From IMG/VR virus record IMGVR_UViG_3300013123_000002: DNA of 20,000 bases. One strand, 5' to 3'. A program made the translations under genes and the position numbers. Origin of the DNA: an uncultured virus (IMG/VR IMGVR_UViG_3300013123_000002) (lineage: Duplodnaviria; Heunggongvirae; Uroviricota; Caudoviricetes). Positions 13,150-19,652 of this stretch are shown one piece after another (within the stretch, counting starts at the first letter, position 1; every line of letters begins with the position of its first letter). The notes under the pieces were generated by a model that was given only the letters and a program-made list of their open reading frames with translations, searched no databases and had not been told where the DNA came from.

Positions 13150-14121
13150 TTAGACGAAAGGTTTATCTGAGCTCCAAGCTATAGGTGTTGATCCAGCAGT
13201 AGTTACAGTCATTCCGATTGGACTGGAATCGGTTAGAAGAGAACCGTTGGTTGATGCTCTCAAAAGAAGGTGAGAATCGTAAGATATGTTCAATCCTGAT
13301 GTCGGCGCAGAAAAGTTTTCCCAGTATTTTGCAACAGTTGGATTTACGTGAAAGTTGCTTATCAACTCGGTGAAGTAAGTGGTAGAAGCGTATCCAGGGT
13401 CGATTCCCAAATGCATAACAGTTTCAGTATCAGTGATGTTGTCCGGTATGTAAGCCGCTGCTCCAAGCTGAGTGTCGTTGTGAAATATCCTCACGTAATT
13501 CTTGTAACGGCATATCGCTATGTGGATCCACTCATCCTGCCAGGTAGGCAAGCCTCTGAATATGTACTGCCCGTTGTACCAAAAATAGATTGCTCCGCTT
13601 TTCGAGCTTGTGCCGAATCCTGAAGGCCATGCACCGAACTGAAATACTCTAGGAAAATCCGAACCTAAGCTCTGTTTCTGGAACCATTCAACTGTAAAAT
13701 CATTCGTTCCTGGGAGAAGGTCGGTAGCGCTGGCTACTTCTCCGTAACACGTTCCAGTTCCAGTGAAGCTCATCGACCCGCTGACCTCGTAAGAAGTGTA
13801 CAGGCTGTTGGTAGAAAGGAACGTGTCGAACCAGGGTATCGTTGTGCCAGGTTCCAATCCTGTGCTGCTCTTGTATAGAGATTGTAGTAGCGAAAGGTAG
13901 CTAGCATCAGTCTTATTAGTGGACCTAAAGAATGTCGGTTCAGCTCCGTTCTACAAAGCTATGATGAACCCGGGTATCTCGTTTGGTTCCATGTACCACG
14001 TCAACCCACCAGGAAGTTCATCGTAATTAAGGTTCGGTTCGCCTATCGACATGTTGTAATAGGCTATCCCGCCTGCACCGATGTCTCCGATTGCAAAAGG
14101 TCTGGCTTGGTAAGTTGACAT
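13150..14121 (-). CDS. LamG/concanavalin-A-like domain protein (323 codons) containing one in-frame TAG at codon 57
   Basis: GTNDFTVEWF, WIHIAICR, YFTELISNFHV and LLLR LamG-like motifs. The frame is open from ATG 14121 except for TAG at 13951-13953. Confidence 0.75.
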
Positions 14122-16067: not shown

Positions 16068-16140
16068 GAGGGAATGGGGGAGTCGAACCCCCGACTAACG
16101 GTTTTAGAGACCGCCGTTCTACCGCTGAACTACAAACCCA
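16068..16140 (-). tRNA. amber suppressor-type tRNA (anticodon CUA), tRNA-Trp-like body
   Basis: D arm GTTC-AGCGGTA-GAAC; anticodon arm GCGGT-CT[CTA]AA-ACCGT; T arm GGGGG-TTCGACT-CCCCC. Acceptor stem imperfect; no CCA. Confidence 0.85.
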
Positions 16141-16186: not shown

Positions 16187-16609
16187 TCATGATCTTTCTT
16201 TGTAAAAATACTGTACCCCAATTTCGTTCAAAAAGTCAACCAGGGCATTGTACGCTGAGACTAAACCAGCTCTATCATCGAGAAGGATGCTGTAAAAGAT
16301 CTTTCTACTCGAAGATTTGAAGAAAGATGGGTTCTCGTTTATCGTATGGTACGGAATGTCGTTCGCTTGAAGATAGGCTCTAACAAAATCGTGGCGTTCG
16401 TTAGCAGTTCCGGTCCAAACAACAAAGCTTATTCCAGGAACTTTTTCCAACGTTCTTAGTAGGTCAACTACCATGTCGTAAGTGTCTCCCTTTTTGCGAT
16501 AATCGTACACAGTGTTGTCAAAATCGTACGCTACGACCAAACCTTCGTGAAATCGGTACTCGTCAACTAGTCTCTTGACTACGTTTTTATGATCTAAGTA
16601 AGTGTCCAT
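16187..16609 (-). CDS. HAD-like phosphatase (140 aa)
   Basis: VAYDFDNTV motif I, VVWT, INEN, LLDDRAG. Start moved to ATG 16609 (A-rich TIR). Confidence 0.75.
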   Translation of the reverse strand: MDTYLDHKNVVKRLVDEYRFHEGLVVAYDFDNTVYDYRKKGDTYDMVVDLLRTLEKVPGISFVVWTGTANERHDFVRAYLQANDIPYHTINENPSFFKSSSRKIFYSILLDDRAGLVSAYNALVDFLNEIGVQYFYKERS

Positions 16610-16621
16610 GTTTTTCTTGTT

Positions 16622-16656
16622 AAAAGGAAACCTTCCGCTCACAGGAGCGGAAGGTT
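16622..16656 (-). terminator. 12-bp hairpin/terminator overlapping the PTH2-like stop codon
   Basis: AACCTTCCGCTC-CTGT-GAGCGGAAGGTT followed by TCCTTTT. Confidence 0.65.
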
Positions 16657-16932
16657 GCTGAAGATGTTGCGTTTATCGGTTAAACAAGCGATCGCTGTTG
16701 CTTCGTGATCAAGGTCAGGTTCTTTGAAAATTGAGAAATCCAAGTCTTTGTAGTAAATTTTTGAGATCCACTTGTGCAGGTCGAACTTTGAACCGACGTT
16801 TAGGTAGACCAGGGTTTCGTTTTCCCAGGTGTTCGGATGATCAATCATCCACTGCGCGACGGCGTGGCCAGCCTGTACGGCTGGGCTGGATCCCTTAAGA
16901 TCCGTTCTCACTAACACAAACAGCTTCTGCAT
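16639..16932 (-). CDS. peptidyl-tRNA hydrolase PTH2-like protein (97 aa)
   Basis: KLFVLVRTDL, AVQAGHAVA, TLVYL and F.EPDL...TAIA match the PTH2-fold signature; start ATG 16932. Confidence 0.8.
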   Translation of the reverse strand: MQKLFVLVRTDLKGSSPAVQAGHAVAQWMIDHPNTWENETLVYLNVGSKFDLHKWISKIYYKDLDFSIFKEPDLDHEATAIACLTDKRNIFSNLPLL

Positions 16933-17194
16933 ACTTCGCCATGATTTCGTCAACCTTTCTTTGTGAATACTCAGTTTCCGGGTTGATAGCCGTCTCTATA
17001 GATTTGCCTCTGAGCAGAGCGTACGCGATGTACATGTGCTTGAGTTGGCTTTTCTGTTCGAGCGCTAAAAGCTGCGCGTCTTTAGGATTCAAAGAACGTG
17101 TTCCCTTGAAGTTTACAGTTTTTCTCTGTTCCTTGGTCTGCCTCTGCTTTTCTGCGAGGGCTTTGATTTCCGATTTTAAGTCTTTTGTTGTCAT
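16895..17194 (-). CDS. basic helical hypothetical protein, partner of the PTH2-like gene (99 aa)
   Basis: LKSEIKALAE..., HMYIAYALLRGKS; overlaps the PTH2 start by 38 nt. Confidence 0.8.
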   Translation of the reverse strand: MTTKDLKSEIKALAEKQRQTKEQRKTVNFKGTRSLNPKDAQLLALEQKSQLKHMYIAYALLRGKSIETAINPETEYSQRKVDEIMAKYAEAVCVSENGS

Positions 17195-17281
17195 TGTTTT
17201 TGAATTTTTTTGTTGTGAATTTTGTGAATTAACAGCTTGAGATTCAAAAACTCCGACAGGACTTCTAATGCTCTACTTCAT
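17195..17281 (-). promoter_or_regulatory. MK-amber minigene leader with TIR-occluding hairpin
   Basis: ATG AAG TAG at 17281-17273, then 26 open codons in frame to ATG 17194; GTTTTTGAAT/ATTCAAAAAC perfect 10-bp repeat. Confidence 0.65.
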
Positions 17282-17328
17282 CTTGTTTGATTTTTTTGTT
17301 ATTGTGGTGCAAAATTGCTTAGTGAAGT

Positions 17329-18384
17329 TTAACGTACCACTTTTTCCGTTGAACTGTCACTTTTCAGCTTATTAGTTTCTACTTTTTTTGAGATCCAGTG
17401 TCCGTGCGAATTGTTGATCGCCTGCCTAAATTGCGGCCGAACGTACTTGGCTATGCTCTTTCTGAAATCGCCGTAGTTGAAGCTGTCAGCTATTCGGACA
17501 ACGTAACCCTCATTAGTTTCTGAGTACTGAGCAAACGCTTTTTCGATAGCTTCTCTGTCGTAAATGCCGTCATAGATCACAGGAACTGTTTCCAGTCCAA
17601 GGATCTGAGCGTACTCAGTCGTTTCTTCCCAGGCCAAGCAAGTGTTATCGATCCAAACTGAAAACACCATGAAGTATGAAGGTAAGTTGTCATACTTCAT
17701 TGAGTGAACAGTGTAGAGGTTCTCTCCGCATATTCGCATGTTATCGTCGATCATCCAACCGATTCTGGACCACAGGCCTTTCACCCAATTCCTGGTCTCG
17801 TGACTTCCTGAGTCTAACGAACGTGCGTGGATCTTATCGTTGTACATGGTCGTGTTCTCACCGTCCATCTTCAAGGTAACGATGACTCTTTTTCCGACAA
17901 AATGATCGTCGTTCGCCAAGATTCTGTCATCCTTTAGTAAATTGCTCCAAGGAAGGTGCATCGTTCTCGGGTACTTAACGTACTTTTGAAACAAGTGTAG
18001 CATGTTCCCTTCTGATAGGACTTTCTGAACGGATTCGTCGTAAAAGAGTTCACCTCTCAATCTAAAGCCGTTGGGCAGAATTATGTTTCCCCACTTATCG
18101 TATTGGAGATCATCGTACATGTGATCAGGTATGACGATCTGAGTTATACCAGCACTGTTGCGAATCTCGTTGCACGATAGAGTAGTTCTTTCTGCTGCAA
18201 GGTGGTGGTACTCGCACAGAGAAGCTCCGTTTTCTAGGTAATAACCTCCGTCTGAAAACAGCCTACGCTCTATGATGTGATGTGCGTCCTTAGCCGGGTT
18301 GCCGCACATCACACACGAGTAATTATCGCGAGCAAAAACTAGCGACCTAAAATCGTCCCGTGAGTATAGTGCTGGTGTTTCCAT
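17329..18384 (-). CDS. HNH endonuclease-domain / RNA ligase (Rnl2-like) fusion (351 aa)
   Basis: N-term VFARDNYSCVMC..DAHHI..NGASLCEYHH; C-term KYPRT.HLPWS, KMDGEN, CGENLY, EGYVVR, AKYVR. Start reset to ATG 18384 because the track ORF runs through a tRNA. Confidence 0.88.
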   Translation of the reverse strand: METPALYSRDDFRSLVFARDNYSCVMCGNPAKDAHHIIERRLFSDGGYYLENGASLCEYHHLAAERTTLSCNEIRNSAGITQIVIPDHMYDDLQYDKWGNIILPNGFRLRGELFYDESVQKVLSEGNMLHLFQKYVKYPRTMHLPWSNLLKDDRILANDDHFVGKRVIVTLKMDGENTTMYNDKIHARSLDSGSHETRNWVKGLWSRIGWMIDDNMRICGENLYTVHSMKYDNLPSYFMVFSVWIDNTCLAWEETTEYAQILGLETVPVIYDGIYDREAIEKAFAQYSETNEGYVVRIADSFNYGDFRKSIAKYVRPQFRQAINNSHGHWISKKVETNKLKSDSSTEKVVR

Positions 18385-18400
18385 GAGAGTATTGTACCAA

Positions 18401-18437
18401 TAAAAAACCTCACCCTTTTCAGGATGAGGTAAAAAAA
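18401..18437 (-). terminator. rho-independent terminator after tRNA-fMet
   Basis: Minus strand ACCTCATCC-TGAAAA-GGGTGAGGT followed by a T-run; A-run on the other side. Confidence 0.7.
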
Positions 18438-18482
18438 TAGTAGGTAGATTCCAGTACTTGCCCGATGCGATACCTACAAGTG

Positions 18483-18555
18483 TTGCGGGAGAAGGATTCG
18501 AACCTTCGACCTCAAGGTTATGAGCCTTGCGAGCTACCTCTGCTGCCACCCCGCG
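18483..18555 (-). tRNA. tRNA-fMet (initiator, anticodon CAT)
   Basis: CGCGGGG...TCCCGCA-A with C1:A72 mismatch; CAAGG-CT[CAT]AA-CCTTG; GAAGG-TTCGAAT-CCTTC; no CCA. Confidence 0.93.
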
Positions 18556-18559
18556 ATGT

Positions 18560-18614
18560 AAAAAACGGGCGCCTTTAATAAACTTGATCGAGAACGTCAC
18601 GCTAGCGCCCGTTT
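18560..18614 (-). repeat. inverted repeat / terminator-like hairpin just upstream of tRNA-fMet
   Basis: AAACGGGCGC/GCGCCCGTTT (10 bp, 32-nt loop) followed by a T-run. Confidence 0.6.
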
Positions 18615-18702
18615 GGGTCGCCTCTGCGAAACGCTGAGGTCTTTCAGTTTTGCGTGTTTGTCTCGTTACCTATTTCATATCGTTGTTAAGCGTCGTTCTG
18701 GG

Positions 18703-18879
18703 TTATTTATACAAGGTTACCGAAAAAGGTTTCACTTGTTGTTTTTCCAATACATCAGCCGATCGAACGAAACGAAACTCTTGGTCGTCCGCTTTTCCAC
18801 CTTTGAGAATCTCGTCCTCTTTAGCAACTTGCTCGTAAACTCTGGAAAATTCCGAAAAATTAGGTACGAATTGTTTCAT
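18703..18879 (-). CDS. small hypothetical protein (58 aa), missed by ORF track
   Basis: MKQFVPNFSEFSRVYEQVAKEDEILKGGKADDQEFRFVRSADVLEKQQVKPFSVTLYK*; starts 4 nt after the upstream TAA. Confidence 0.55.
   Translation of the reverse strand: MKQFVPNFSEFSRVYEQVAKEDEILKGGKADDQEFRFVRSADVLEKQQVKPFSVTLYK
18704..18711 (-). promoter_or_regulatory. T4-like late promoter TATAAATA
   Basis: Exact consensus upstream of the leader and tRNA-fMet. Confidence 0.6.
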
Positions 18880-18883
18880 ACCT

Positions 18884-19297
18884 TTATTTATCGTCAGCAG
18901 TACCAGCCACTTTCGTTAGAACGATTCTCTCGTACTGTTCCTTACAGATGTCTACTAGAGCAGGATCGTTAAACGCGTAAATGTCCGGAATATTGAGAAC
19001 GTAGCACTTTTCGGTTGCTCCAAGACTTTCGATCTCTTCCTTCACCATGTTGTAATTCTGAGAATTGACGAAAACTATCTCGTCTGCCCATTCAACCAAA
19101 GCTTCGGATATAGGGATTAGTGCGTAAGATTCGTCGGTTCCGCAGTTTCTGACGTTGTAACCGTACTCTCTGATCAGAAAATTCTGGAGAGTGGCTGACC
19201 TTAACAGACCAGCGGAGCACGCACACAGGACCTTCTTGGTCTTTCCCTGGTAATGGTTGTGAACGTTGTAGATTTGATTTCTAGTTGCTTTTATCAT
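18884..19297 (-). CDS. low-molecular-weight protein-tyrosine-phosphatase-like protein
   Basis: VLCACSAGLLRSAT (CX5RS P-loop), VEWADEI, LNIPD.Y; start likely ATG 19297. Confidence 0.85.
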   Translation of the reverse strand: MIKATRNQIYNVHNHYQGKTKKVLCACSAGLLRSATLQNFLIREYGYNVRNCGTDESYALIPISEALVEWADEIVFVNSQNYNMVKEEIESLGATEKCYVLNIPDIYAFNDPALVDICKEQYERIVLTKVAGTADDK

Positions 19298-19310
19298 GTT
19301 CTTTCTAAAT

Positions 19311-19652
19311 TTATACAACAAATGGCTGATAATCAGTTTCAGTTACTCCACGAAGTTCAGCTAGCATGTTCTGAGCTCCATCGTAATTCCAAGAGTGAAC
19401 TATTACTATCGGCGGAGGGTCTTTCATCTTTGCTATGAACTGAGCTACTTCGTAACCCGTATTCTTACCGCTCTGTTGAAAAACCTTTCCTCCAAGATCG
19501 TGATCCAAGCTCGCCAAGTCAAATTTGATCTTTTTTAACAGATCAATAGCTTCAGCCGCATTTTCTGCAATGCTCAGTTCATGATTTGCGTCCCATCTTT
19601 TTTTGATGACATCGATCCGATTGTGATCGTCATCGAGGAATAGTATTTTCAT
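19311..19652 (-). CDS. stand-alone receiver-fold protein, cyclic-phosphate-processing receiver-like
   Basis: ILFLDDD..R, SLDHDLG, TGYEVA, IVHSWN..GA..M. Confidence 0.8.
   Translation of the reverse strand: MKILFLDDDHNRIDVIKKRWDANHELSIAENAAEAIDLLKKIKFDLASLDHDLGGKVFQQSGKNTGYEVAQFIAKMKDPPPIVIVHSWNYDGAQNMLAELRGVTETDYQPFVV

What the first reader, a model, noticed from the sequence alone, without database searches (positions are those of the whole stretch)
16639..17300. MK-amber minigene plus start-occluding hairpin: candidate readthrough/termination-sensing switch controlling a phage peptidyl-tRNA hydrolase operon
Seen: after an A-rich initiation region (AAAAAAATCAAACAAG) the minus strand reads ATG AAG TAG (17281-17273). 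Twenty-six stop-free codons (SIRSPVGVFESQAVNSQNSQQKNSKT) follow, exactly in frame with ATG 17194 of a 99-aa gene that overlaps a PTH2-like gene. GTTTTTGAAT (17251-17242) is perfectly complementary to ATTCAAAAAC (17205-17196), which ends 1 nt before that ATG; the 5' arm begins ~21 nt after the TAG. Established: two-codon minigenes (lambda bar type) cause peptidyl-tRNA drop-off, which Pth must recycle, and leader-ORF ribosomes control downstream starts by melting hairpins. Inference: a ribosome terminating at UAG leaves the hairpin closed. Readthrough (RF1 shortage or inhibition, or the nearby tRNA-CUA) opens it or makes an N-extended protein, inducing hydrolase when termination is impaired. I know of no described phage system with this layout.
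Basis: partly seen in the sequence, partly recalled or inferred. Interest (0 to 1): 0.9.

Follow-up and report, generated by a model that had tools for sequence, protein, structure and literature searches.

The report
Stop-codon-gated leader switch in phage
A large phage places a tiny leader gene interrupted by a UAG stop, plus a hairpin that hides the next gene's start, in front of two small genes, so they are probably made only when the phage's own UAG-reading tRNA overrides the stop; dozens of distant phages keep the same design.

Summary
On the minus strand, ATG AAG TAG (17281-17273) is followed by 26 sense codons in frame with ATG 17194. A helix pairs 17257-17242 with 17205-17190, covering that ATG.

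In a relative at about 85% DNA identity, all 6 changes in the 26 codons are synonymous third-position changes. In a 59% relative the helix keeps its register through 3 double changes.

The downstream gene has a Pth2 fold. Among 80 IMG/VR loci with this gene, 74 carry a suppressor tRNA: 66 CUA, 7 UUA, 1 UCA.

- 41 of 46 dereplicated CUA clusters have an ATG-(1-9 codons)-TAG mini-ORF at the matching place, against 53 of 182 control windows.
- The gating stop follows the anticodon: TAA with UUA, TGA with UCA.
- Read through, the leader encodes Pro-Pro in frame in 33 of 47 clusters (1 and 4 in the other frames), often RGPP or RAPP.
- Those Pro codons form the arm that pairs with the next gene's ribosome-binding site.

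Best reading: a suppression-sensing translational switch. The window's copy is a variant without Shine-Dalgarno pairing, fused in frame to the main gene. No experiment supports this, and five literature searches found no description. This scan noted the same design before on another genome (e1-5680253).

The parts
17306..17324 (-). Conserved upstream block, a possible promoter. It lies between the RNA-ligase stop (17329-17331) and the leader.
   Evidence: There is 1 difference in the 47 nt upstream of the leader ATG between the window and G001, although flanking genes differ by 15-18%. The block is also kept in L015, where the upstream gene is different. It occurs once in the window. Promoter function was not tested.
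17273..17281 (-). Leader start and gating stop: ATG AAG TAG.
   Evidence: It is identical in L002/G001, L003 and L015. L016 has ATG plus 4 codons plus TAG. The class pattern M-X-TAG is shown.
17195..17272 (-). 26 read-through codons (SIRSPVGVFES...NSKT), in frame with the main ORF.
   Evidence: All 6 of 6 substitutions against G001 are third-position and synonymous; the other two frames give 0 synonymous changes. L015 has one S-to-N change. One sludge contig has one V-to-G change.
17258..17269 (-). I-R-S-P codons directly after the gating stop. This corresponds to the R-x-P(-P) motif of the class.
   Evidence: The motif is kept in L016 (VIRSP), and L082 has SRSP. Class leaders end in RGPP, RAPP, RSPP or KPP-stop. 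Arrest activity was not tested.
17242..17257 (-). 5' arm of the start-occluding helix: outer GTCG, 2-nt mismatch, then GTTTTTGAAT.
   Evidence: It begins 15 nt after the TAG.
17190..17205 (-). 3' arm of the helix. It covers -11 to +5 around the main ATG.
   Evidence: In the codon-anchored register 14 of 16 positions pair, against 6-8 at shifted registers. Three pairs change on both sides relative to L016.
16895..17194 (-). Main ORF, 99 aa from ATG 17194 (128 aa if read from ATG 17281 through the TAG). It belongs to a helical protein family of unknown function.
   Evidence: There are 20 homologs at 59-86% identity, and their gene calls start at the internal Met. The model is a 3-helix structure with pLDDT 87 and no PDB fold match. 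A family member lies directly upstream of the PTH2-like gene in 43 of 80 loci.
16639..16932 (-). PTH2-fold gene (97 aa). It overlaps the main ORF by 38 nt.
   Evidence: phrog_3668 at 5e-11. Profile against PDB Pth2 at E 6e-4. Model pLDDT 95. Foldseek hits 2zv3, 3erj, 1xty and 1q7s at TM 0.76-0.80. Pfam PTH2 is below cut-off.
16629..16656 (-). Terminator-like hairpin plus T tract at the end of the two-gene unit.
   Evidence: 12 pairs, 7 of them GC. The PTH2-like stop codon lies in the loop.
16068..16140 (-). tRNA with anticodon CUA (amber suppressor), the presumed trigger.
   Evidence: ARAGORN and Rfam tRNA at 53 bits. It is conserved in G001 and L017. A suppressor tRNA lies on the same strand after the PTH2-like gene in 46 of 46 CUA clusters.

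Best explanation
The stretch is a suppression-sensing translational switch.

**Layout.** One transcript carries three elements:
- a tiny leader ORF (ATG AAG) that runs at once into a UAG;
- a helix whose 5' arm lies 15-31 nt past that UAG and whose 3' arm covers the start codon of the next gene;
- a two-gene cargo: a helical 99-aa protein and a Pth2-fold hydrolase.

**Off state.** If the ribosome terminates at UAG, it stays clear of the helix. The start site stays buried and the cargo is not made.

**On state.** If the phage's own tRNA(CUA) inserts an amino acid, the ribosome runs on into the 5' arm and melts the helix, exposing the start site. In most relatives the read-through peptide ends in RGPP, RAPP or PP-stop, so the ribosome probably pauses there and holds the helix open.

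**The window's lineage.** Here the leader has no closing stop, so the same ribosome also continues into the gene and makes a 128-aa form.

**Shown:** the anatomy; coding-type evolution of the 26 codons; helix covariation; class-wide recurrence; frame-locking of Pro-Pro; and stop-anticodon covariation.

**Inferred:** read-through by the tRNA, arrest, and the effect on cargo expression.

**What the cargo does.** It may clear peptidyl-tRNA or stalled ribosomes that suppression creates, or it may feed back on the suppressor tRNA. This is a guess.
For: **The window lineage**
- Window against G001: the 26 codons show 6 substitutions, all third-position and synonymous. The 99-aa body shows 21 synonymous and 20 nonsynonymous changed codons.
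- ATG AAG TAG is identical in 3 further records.
- Window against L016 (59% protein identity), in one register anchored on the Pro codon and on the ATG: 14 of 16 and 13 of 16 positions pair, against 5-8 at shifts of 1-3 nt. Three pairs change on both sides.
- L082, L083 and L016 each bury their AUG with a different arm sequence.
- In L082 the leader is in another frame and stops at ATGA on the main start. In L016 a TAA lies between leader and gene. The leader is therefore a separate unit in relatives.

**The class**
- The PTH2-like profile finds 328 relatives in IMG/VR, of which the best 80 were kept. Of these 80 loci, 74 hold a suppressor tRNA: CUA 66, UUA 7, UCA 1.
- The tRNA(CUA) is on the same strand in 46 of 46 clusters and starts 0-60 nt after the PTH2-like stop in 30 of 46.
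- An ATG-(1-9 codons)-TAG mini-ORF lies at -500 to -330 in 41 of 46 CUA clusters, against 53 of 182 control windows (p = 7e-14). TAA and TGA mini-ORFs are not enriched.
- UUA loci have TAA-gated leaders, including GenBank Lak-A2. The UCA locus has a TGA-gated leader.
- Pro-Pro occurs within 22 codons after the gating stop in frame 0 in 33 of 47 clusters, against 1 and 4 in the other frames (p = 1e-11).
- Those Pro-Pro codons overlap the 5' arm in 30 of 33 clusters.
- Arm-to-RBS duplex energy has a median of -15.7 kcal/mol, against -9.4 for 137 other gene starts (Mann-Whitney p = 1e-12).
- The gating stop lies at least 12 nt before the arm in 40 of 47 clusters.

**Outside support**
- RAPP and RGPP are robust arrest cores (abstract of PMC12992588; abstract and passages of PMC10951233).
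- G000 initiates without Shine-Dalgarno: 7 of 97 long ORFs have an SD-like 4-mer, and upstream regions are 44% A. This fits an arm aimed at the AUG rather than at an SD.
Against: **No direct data**
- There is no experiment and no RNA data; no RNA run was listed as holding the stretch.
- The amino acid carried by the tRNA is unknown.

**The hairpin is weak on its own**
- The window's hairpin is AU-rich and weak, with z = -2.1.
- By the crude MFE measure, RBS pairing is common at ordinary genes too: at least 6 nt are paired in 89 of 137 controls against 40 of 47 here.

**The arrest step is doubtful for the window**
- The window peptide has R-S-P-V, not RxPP. In ApdP the A132S change, which gives RSPP, is listed among non-stalling variants (passage in PMC10951233).

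**A plain 128-codon gene is not excluded**
- In the window the leader is fused in frame, so a 128-codon gene with one recoded TAG explains the synonymous changes equally well.

**Limits of the comparative sample**
- Only four independent lineages of the close family have DNA I could read.
- Clusters are related, so counts are not independent events.
- 7 of 54 clusters gave no leader candidate by my rule, or no upstream ORF.
- 6 of 80 loci show no suppressor tRNA within 2.5 kb.
Confidence: 0.72

Rival explanations
1. Plain recoded gene. The real gene is 128 codons from ATG 17281, with TAG as a sense codon read by the phage tRNA, as in code-15 phages. The internal ATG and the hairpin have no regulatory role.
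For: - The leader is in frame with the main ORF with no stop between, and the 26 codons evolve under purifying selection, with 6 of 6 changes synonymous.
- The phage tolerates another in-frame TAG, at window 13953-13951, where G001 has CAG.
- Recoded stops as expression timers are an existing hypothesis (Borges et al. preprint, passages).
Against: - In L082 the leader is out of frame and ends on the main start. In L016 a TAA separates them. In most class members the leader closes with a stop 30-75 nt before the main start.
- The helix covaries to keep the internal AUG buried.
- All 20 homologous gene calls begin at or 3 codons before the internal Met.
- The genome is otherwise standard-coded: only 2 supported in-frame TAGs in about 103 kb of aligned sequence.
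Confidence: 0.13
2. Sensor of host termination capacity. The leader reads out RF1 activity (shortage, inhibition or phage attack on RF1) rather than the phage tRNA. Near-cognate read-through or prolonged pausing at UAG opens the helix.
For: - Two-codon ORFs place the stop at the earliest possible point. From recalled knowledge, release on very short peptidyl-tRNAs is inefficient and drop-off is frequent.
- The cargo has a peptidyl-tRNA hydrolase fold.
Against: - The gating stop changes to TAA or TGA exactly where the neighbouring tRNA is UUA or UCA. TGA is read by RF2, not RF1.
- 17 of 47 leaders carry 2 or 3 gating stops in series, which near-cognate read-through would rarely pass.
- A ribosome paused at the stop sits at least 12 nt before the arm in 40 of 47 clusters.
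Confidence: 0.08
3. Ordinary upstream mini-ORF and an unrelated structure. UAG is a true stop, nothing downstream of it is translated, and the helix responds to some other signal or is a by-product of A/U-rich sequence.
For: - Short ATG-stop ORFs are common by chance: TAG-ending ones occur in 53 of 182 control windows.
- The window's hairpin alone is weak.
Against: - Substitutions are frame-locked and synonymous.
- Pro-Pro is frame-locked, 33 against 1 and 4.
- The stop follows the anticodon.
- TAG mini-ORFs are enriched, 41 of 46 against 53 of 182.
- The helix shows compensatory changes.
Confidence: 0.04

Closest known systems
Arrest-peptide leaders that unmask a downstream ribosome-binding site (SecM-secA; RAPP-type ApdA/ApdP and other RAPP/RGPP uORFs)
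   Same: - A short upstream ORF whose translating or stalled ribosome melts a stem-loop that sequesters the next gene's RBS (SecM scheme, figure legend in PMC10951233).
- Many class members end in RGPP or RAPP, the cores reported as robust arrest sequences (PMC12992588 abstract).
- The Pro-Pro codons sit on the sequestering arm.
   Different: - The input differs. Here ribosomes can reach the arrest motif only after decoding 1-3 stop codons cognate to a neighbouring suppressor tRNA. Known cases sense secretion or insertion force, or small molecules.
- The cargo is a Pth2-fold protein, not Sec/YidC.
- The window's own peptide has RSPV and no closing stop.
- Arrest has not been tested.
prfB (release factor 2) autoregulation by an early in-frame UGA (recalled knowledge, not checked in a call)
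   Same: A stop codon placed early in a reading frame serves as a gauge of how well that stop is being terminated, and sets the yield of a translation factor.
   Different: - prfB escapes the stop by a +1 frameshift and senses RF2 itself.
- Here escape is by a suppressor tRNA, the read-out goes through an RNA helix, and three stop types are used according to the tRNA.
Stop-codon recoding as a timer of late or lytic genes in code-15 and code-4 phages (Borges et al. preprint 10.1101/2021.08.26.457843; Lak phages, PMC6784885)
   Same: - A phage-encoded suppressor tRNA, with in-frame stops that block translation until the tRNA acts (passages).
- The class includes Lak-A2.
   Different: - Those papers describe stops spread through structural and lysis genes, and a 'code change module' of tRNA, synthetase and release factor.
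- The word searches found no mention of a leader, a hairpin or a peptidyl-tRNA hydrolase: 'peptidyl' and 'hydrolase' gave 0 hits in the preprint, and 'peptidyl' gave 0 hits in PMC6784885.
- The window's genome is otherwise standard-coded.
Lambda bar-type two-codon minigenes (recalled knowledge)
   Same: An ATG, one sense codon, then a stop. There is a conceptual link to peptidyl-tRNA hydrolase.
   Different: - bar minigenes are toxic in pth-defective hosts through drop-off, and no regulatory read-through or helix is involved.
- Drop-off here is untested, and leaders of up to 10 codons exist in the class.
Pth2 of jumbo phages (Iyer et al. 2021, PMC7824862)
   Same: [quoted passage not shown]
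   Different: It makes no link to suppressor tRNAs ('suppressor' gave 0 hits) and describes no leader.

Membership tests
Stop-gated leader class upstream of the helical-protein/PTH2-like pair (defined here; also noted earlier in this scan as e1-5680253) | Short leader ORF whose early stop is cognate to a suppressor tRNA encoded nearby on the same strand | tested here: met
   ATG AAG TAG at 17281-17273, and tRNA(CUA) at 16140-16068 on the same strand. For the class: 41 of 46 clusters.
Stop-gated leader class upstream of the helical-protein/PTH2-like pair (defined here; also noted earlier in this scan as e1-5680253) | Sequence after the gating stop is selected as coding in the leader's frame and encodes R/K-x-P-P | tested here: inconclusive
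   The coding signature is met: 6 of 6 changes are synonymous. The motif is I-R-S-P-V, with one Pro rather than Pro-Pro.
Stop-gated leader class upstream of the helical-protein/PTH2-like pair (defined here; also noted earlier in this scan as e1-5680253) | Arm downstream of the stop pairs with the RBS or start codon of the next gene | tested here: met
   14 of 16 positions pair, and 3 compensatory pairs are seen against L016. The duplex energy is -14.6 kcal/mol.
Stop-gated leader class upstream of the helical-protein/PTH2-like pair (defined here; also noted earlier in this scan as e1-5680253) | Leader closes with its own stop before or on the main start | tested here: not met
   There is no stop between the TAG and ATG 17194, and the leader is fused in frame. 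Relatives L082 and L016 and most class members do close.
RAPP-like ribosome arrest peptides | C-terminal RAPP/RGPP-type core | tested here: not met
   The window has RSPV. In relatives the core is present: RGPP in at least 9 clusters and RAPP in L124. In ApdP, A132S is listed as non-stalling.
RAPP-like ribosome arrest peptides | Nascent-chain-dependent stalling shown by toeprint or peptidyl-tRNA accumulation | not testable with these tools
   This needs in vitro translation.
Pth2 (PF01981) for the gene at 16639-16932 | Sequence match above Pfam's gathering score | tested here: not met
   13.9 bits against 23. Two homologs carry a precomputed PF01981 hit. The profile against PDB Pth2 gives E 6e-4.
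Pth2 (PF01981) for the gene at 16639-16932 | Pth2 fold | tested here: met
   The model has pLDDT 95. Foldseek hits 2zv3, 3erj, 1xty, 1wn2 and 1q7s at E 1e-6 to 2e-4 and TM 0.73-0.80.
Pth2 (PF01981) for the gene at 16639-16932 | Catalytic residues and hydrolysis of peptidyl-tRNA | not tested
   The alignment shows invariant VQAGHA and EPD blocks. I did not map these to the published catalytic residues. Activity needs an assay.
Code-15 (TAG recoded) phage genome | Many in-frame TAG codons in genes, with low coding density under code 11 | tested here: not met
   Standard code gives dense ORFs, and TAG ends 37 of 199 long ORFs. Only 2 in-frame TAGs are supported in about 103 kb aligned to G001. 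An apparent 17-TAG ORF was an off-frame reading of a collagen-like repeat gene. The record is about 51% complete, so the rest is unseen.
Lambda bar-type minigene | Two-codon ORF that causes peptidyl-tRNA drop-off | not testable with these tools
   The two-codon form is present. Drop-off needs an experiment.

The most novel reading that the evidence does not exclude
Huge phages carry a dedicated feedback circuit for genetic-code switching. The circuit has two parts.

- **The sensor.** A leader ORF measures how well the phage's own suppressor tRNA beats the release factor at a given stop codon. It is built from 1-3 cognate stops, an RxPP arrest peptide and an anti-RBS arm.
- **The cargo.** A Pth2-fold enzyme and a helical partner are made only when suppression is on. 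They either tune the suppressor (for example by hydrolysing its acylated or peptidyl form) or clear the stalled ribosomes that genome-wide read-through creates.

This would be the first natural riboregulator whose input is nonsense suppression. It would also give a defined natural target for the suppressor tRNAs found in phages that otherwise use the standard code.
Probability: 0.45. Interest if true: 0.9.

Novelty: new variant of a known kind. Interest (0 to 1): 0.85.

Why it matters
**A target for puzzling tRNAs.** Suppressor tRNAs turn up in many phages, including ones that use the standard code, and their targets are often unknown. One genome announcement says so outright (PMC9022506 abstract). 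This design gives such tRNAs a concrete, conserved target.

**A possible checkpoint in code switching.** It suggests that phages monitor suppression itself. The read-out is coupled to a Pth2-fold enzyme that had so far been discussed only as a ribosome-rescue factor after tRNA cleavage (PMC7824862).

**A new input for a known mechanism.** Leader-peptide and arrest-peptide control would gain a new kind of input, namely competition between a tRNA and a release factor at a stop codon.

**A compact natural sensor.** The element is about 90 nt long and exists in TAG, TAA and TGA versions. That is of interest for work on expanded genetic codes.

**Directly testable.** Ordinary reporter and toeprinting assays can test the idea.

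Tried and rejected
**Whole-genome TAG recoding: rejected**
- Code 11 gives dense ORFs.
- A 1,872-codon frame with 17 TAGs turned out to be an off-frame reading of a collagen-like repeat gene that is open in the standard code.
- Most minus-strand 'TAG bridges' were antisense frames with stops in G001.

**Searches for more DNA relatives of the 99-aa gene**
- IMG/VR by protein and by profile: only G001 and a near-identical strain.
- JGI metagenomes: L015, L016 and a partial L017.
- GTDB genomes: none.
- GenBank phages by tblastn: none.
- An IMG/VR pattern scan gave 61 loci, of which 59 were chance matches.
- The 20 homologous proteins come mostly from collections whose DNA I could not fetch.

**Sequencing runs**
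- No RNA holder was listed.
- Contigs of 3 sludge or digester runs repeat the G001-type variant, with one extra V-to-G change.

**Other checks that gave nothing usable**
- Rfam found nothing in the leader.
- No release-factor gene (PF00472) was found in G000 or G001. Both are fragments, so this says little.
- The tRNA's amino-acid identity could not be inferred from similarity to other phage tRNAs; there was no clear nearest type.
- Complex prediction of the 99-aa protein with the PTH2-like protein gave no answer, score 0.02.
- The fold search for the 99-aa protein had a best E of 1.8.
- The simple MFE measure 'at least 6 RBS nt paired' discriminates poorly, 89 of 137 controls. I replaced it with duplex energy and a threshold of at least 9 nt.
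Full report
**1. The observation**

One search confirms every coordinate on the minus strand.
- After an A-rich stretch come ATG AAG TAG (17281-17273).
- Then follow 26 sense codons (17272-17195).
- Then comes ATG 17194 of a 99-codon ORF. It overlaps by 38 nt a 97-codon ORF starting at ATG 16932.
- The 10-nt arms 17251-17242 and 17205-17196 are perfectly complementary.
- The predicted fold adds an outer 4-bp stem, 17257-17254 with 17193-17190, so the start codon itself is partly paired.
- A terminator-like hairpin closes the two-gene unit at 16656-16629.
- A tRNA with anticodon CUA lies at 16140-16068.

The hairpin on its own is unremarkable: z = -2.1, and 5 of 200 shuffles fold as well.

**2. 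Context**

The window is the first 20 kb of a 131-kb IMG/VR phage record estimated at 51% complete. All window genes are on the minus strand.

Neighbours include:
- an RNA ligase;
- a cyclic-phosphate-type receiver domain;
- a helicase;
- a transglycosylase.

The genome initiates without Shine-Dalgarno. Only 7 of 97 long ORFs have an SD-like 4-mer, and the 20 nt upstream of starts are 44% A.

It is essentially standard-coded.
- TAG ends 37 of 199 long ORFs.
- A scan for in-frame TAGs with a coding signature on both sides, using the collinear relative G001 (174 kb, 82-92% identity), left two in G000: this one, and window 13953-13951, where G001 has CAG.
- An apparent 17-TAG ORF was an off-frame reading of a collagen-like repeat gene.

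**3. The 26 codons are translated**

Between the window and G001, the 47 nt upstream of the leader ATG differ at 1 position, and ATG AAG TAG is identical. The 26 codons differ at 6 positions, all third-position and all synonymous. In the other two frames, 0 of 6 would be synonymous. The 99-codon body has 21 synonymous and 20 nonsynonymous changed codons.

All six falling on third positions has a chance of about 0.001.

Two further variants are informative. L015 keeps the same leader behind a different upstream gene, with one S-to-N change. One sludge contig adds a V-to-G change in the low-complexity part.

So a ribosome must pass the TAG, or start at an unusual codon just after it.

**4. The helix is selected**

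L016 shares 59% protein identity. It has a leader of ATG plus four codons plus TAG, and then V-I-R-S-P.

Anchoring the 5' side on the Pro codon and the 3' side on the main ATG gives these counts:

| Register | Window | L016 |
|---|---|---|
| Shift 0 | 14 of 16 paired | 13 of 16 paired |
| Shifts of 1-3 nt | 6-8 of 16 | 5-8 of 16 |

Three pairs differ on both sides.

L082 (60% identity) and L083 bury their AUG with yet other arm sequences.

In L082 the leader runs in another frame and ends at a TGA that overlaps the main ATG. In L016 the frame between leader and gene holds TAG, TAA and TAG, and a 78-nt, strongly structured insert sits in the loop.

The leader is therefore a unit of its own. The in-frame fusion in the window is a lineage peculiarity.

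**5. The cargo**

*The 97-aa protein.*
- It matches phrog_3668.
- It misses Pfam PTH2's cut-off, 13.9 against 23 bits.
- A 22-sequence profile hits two solved Pth2 chains at E 6e-4 and 6e-3.
- The model has pLDDT 95.
- Foldseek's top hits are archaeal Pth2 and human Bit1, at TM 0.73-0.80.

*The 99-aa protein.*
- It models as three helices with pLDDT 87.
- It has no fold match; the best E is 1.8.

**6. The class**

The Pth2-fold profile finds 328 relatives in IMG/VR. I analysed the best 80.

*Suppressor tRNAs.* ARAGORN finds one in 74 of 80 loci: CUA 66, UUA 7, UCA 1. After dereplication there are 54 clusters; 3 loci were dropped for lacking 520 nt upstream. In the CUA clusters the tRNA is on the same strand in 46 of 46, and it starts 0-60 nt after the hydrolase stop in 30 of 46.

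*The helical gene.* A member of the 99-aa family lies directly upstream in 43 of 80 loci.

*The mini-ORF.* Occurrence of an ATG-(1-9 codons)-stop mini-ORF at -500 to -330 from the hydrolase start, by stop type:

| Stop | CUA clusters | Control windows | p |
|---|---|---|---|
| TAG | 41 of 46 | 53 of 182 | 7e-14 |
| TAA | 22 of 46 | 92 of 182 | not enriched |
| TGA | 9 of 46 | 60 of 182 | not enriched |

By a fixed rule, 47 of 54 clusters yield a leader 60-170 nt before the main start. It is mostly M-X-stop with a Shine-Dalgarno sequence in front.

**7. What the leaders say when read through**

*Pro-Pro is frame-locked.* In frame with the leader ATG, Pro-Pro appears within 22 codons of the gating stop in 33 of 47 clusters. 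The other two frames give 1 and 4 (p = 1e-11). Typical endings are KPP-stop, RGPP, RSPP and RAPP.

*Multiple gating stops.* 13 leaders have two gating stops and 4 have three.

*The Pro-Pro codons form the arm.* The codons (CCN CCN) overlap the arm that pairs with the main gene's RBS in 30 of 33 clusters.

*Arm-to-RBS pairing is stronger than at other genes.*
- Median duplex energy is -15.7 kcal/mol, against -9.4 for 137 other SD-bearing gene starts in the same loci (p = 1e-12).
- Duplexes of -12 or better occur in 38 of 47 against 36 of 137.
- The cruder MFE measure is less discriminating: at least 6 nt paired in 40 of 47 against 89 of 137, and at least 9 nt in 36 of 47 against 50 of 137.

*Spacing.* The gating stop lies at least 12 nt before the arm in 40 of 47 clusters, with a median of 18. 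A terminating ribosome should therefore leave the helix intact.

**8. The stop follows the tRNA**

- The two UUA clusters have TAA-gated leaders: MKLQHW-TAA-VTLSRGSP... and MELQHW-TAA-VTCDRGP-TAA. The first of these is also found in GenBank's Prevotella phage Lak-A2.
- The single UCA locus has MKRI-TGA-TRNKGPD....

This is few lineages, but it is the pattern expected if the neighbouring tRNA is the trigger. It argues against RF1 status alone, because TGA is read by RF2.

**9. Mechanism**

*Shown:* the anatomy, the selection in frame, the covariation, the recurrence and the stop-anticodon matching.

*Inferred:*
1. Termination at the gating stop leaves the RBS or start buried.
2. Suppression lets the ribosome enter the arm.
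3. RxPP or PP-stop holds it there.
4. The main start opens.

RAPP and RGPP are reported as robust, EF-P-refractory arrest cores (abstract of PMC12992588). [quoted passage not shown] The SecM scheme of RBS unmasking is described in that paper's figure legend.

A caution applies to the window. Its motif is RSPV, and ApdP A132S is listed among non-stalling variants. The window may therefore rely on simple passage of the ribosome, which in this lineage also yields a 128-aa product.

What the cargo does is open.

**10. Known or new**

Five full-text searches found no description of a stop-gated leader or of a Pth2-suppressor tRNA link.

| Paper | What I saw | Result |
|---|---|---|
| Borges et al. 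preprint | passages by word search, | 'Peptidyl' 0 hits, 'hydrolase' 0 hits. Describes a tRNA, synthetase and release-factor module. |
| PMC13037316 | passages, | 'Peptidyl' 0 hits, 'hydrolase' 0 hits. |
| PMC7824862 | passages, | Reports PTH2 in jumbo phages as a possible rescue factor. 'Suppressor' 0 hits. |
| PMC6784885 | passages, | Reports code 15 and several suppressor tRNA types in Lak phages. 'Peptidyl' 0 hits. |

Supplements of these papers were not read and could list the gene.

This scan's own notes hold the same design on another genome (e1-5680253). I reached it independently, and here I tested its claims on this window's family.

**11. Verdict**

- The kind (leader-ORF control of a sequestered start) is known. 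The input (nonsense suppression by a cognate phage tRNA) and the cargo are new.
- All support is computational.

Noticed in passing
window 13951-13953 (minus strand): A second in-frame TAG joins ORFs 13951-14121 and 13150-13857 into a 323-codon gene with a ConA/Laminin-G-like domain. Both sides evolve as coding sequence, and G001 has CAG (Gln) at that codon. Conversely, G001 has TAG where G000 has TAC at G000 position 87547.
   Followed up: partly
L016:322-400: In this 59% relative, a 78-nt, strongly structured insert sits in the loop of the start-occluding hairpin. The fold of 270-460 has z = -5.0. It matches no tRNA and no Rfam family. It may be a small mobile hairpin element.
   Followed up: partly
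window 16068-16140 (minus strand); L002:4004-4077: By ARAGORN's drawing, the tRNA(CUA) has two U-U mismatches in its acceptor stem. These are kept in G001, while pairs 1:72 and 7:66 change (U-U to U-A; U-A to C-G). Its amino-acid identity could not be inferred.
   Followed up: partly
window 17329-19652 (minus strand): A cluster that looks like RNA repair lies just upstream. It holds an RNA ligase whose N-terminal part matches HNH endonuclease families, tRNA-Met (18482-18555), a weak dual-specificity-phosphatase-like ORF (18884-19321) and a cyclic-phosphate-processing receiver domain (19311-19652).
   Followed up: no
L160 (GenBank MK250019, Prevotella phage Lak-A2), about 737-1800: A published, unannotated megaphage genome holds the full module in its ochre version: tRNA(UUA), a TAA-gated leader, a longer helical gene and the PTH2-like gene.
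   Followed up: partly
L161 (Xanthomonas phage XacN1, AP018399) 940-1800: Here the PTH2-like domain is the C-terminal part of a 280-aa annotated protein (ORF364). ATG AAG TAG lies in frame 5 codons before its annotated start. No tRNA was found within 1.5 kb.
   Followed up: no
G000:C1:125561-131443 (outside the window): A gene of at least 1,960 codons with long Gly-Ser-Ser-Gly-Thr-Ser collagen-like repeats runs off the end of the record. Its other frames mimic TAG-recoded ORFs.
   Followed up: partly
window 16187-16609 (minus strand): The gene between the PTH2-like gene and the tRNA(CUA) matches phrog_1238 ('phosphoheptose isomerase'). It is the only part of this stretch with DNA similarity (71%) to the 735-kb uncultured phages LR756501 and LR756503.
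   Followed up: no
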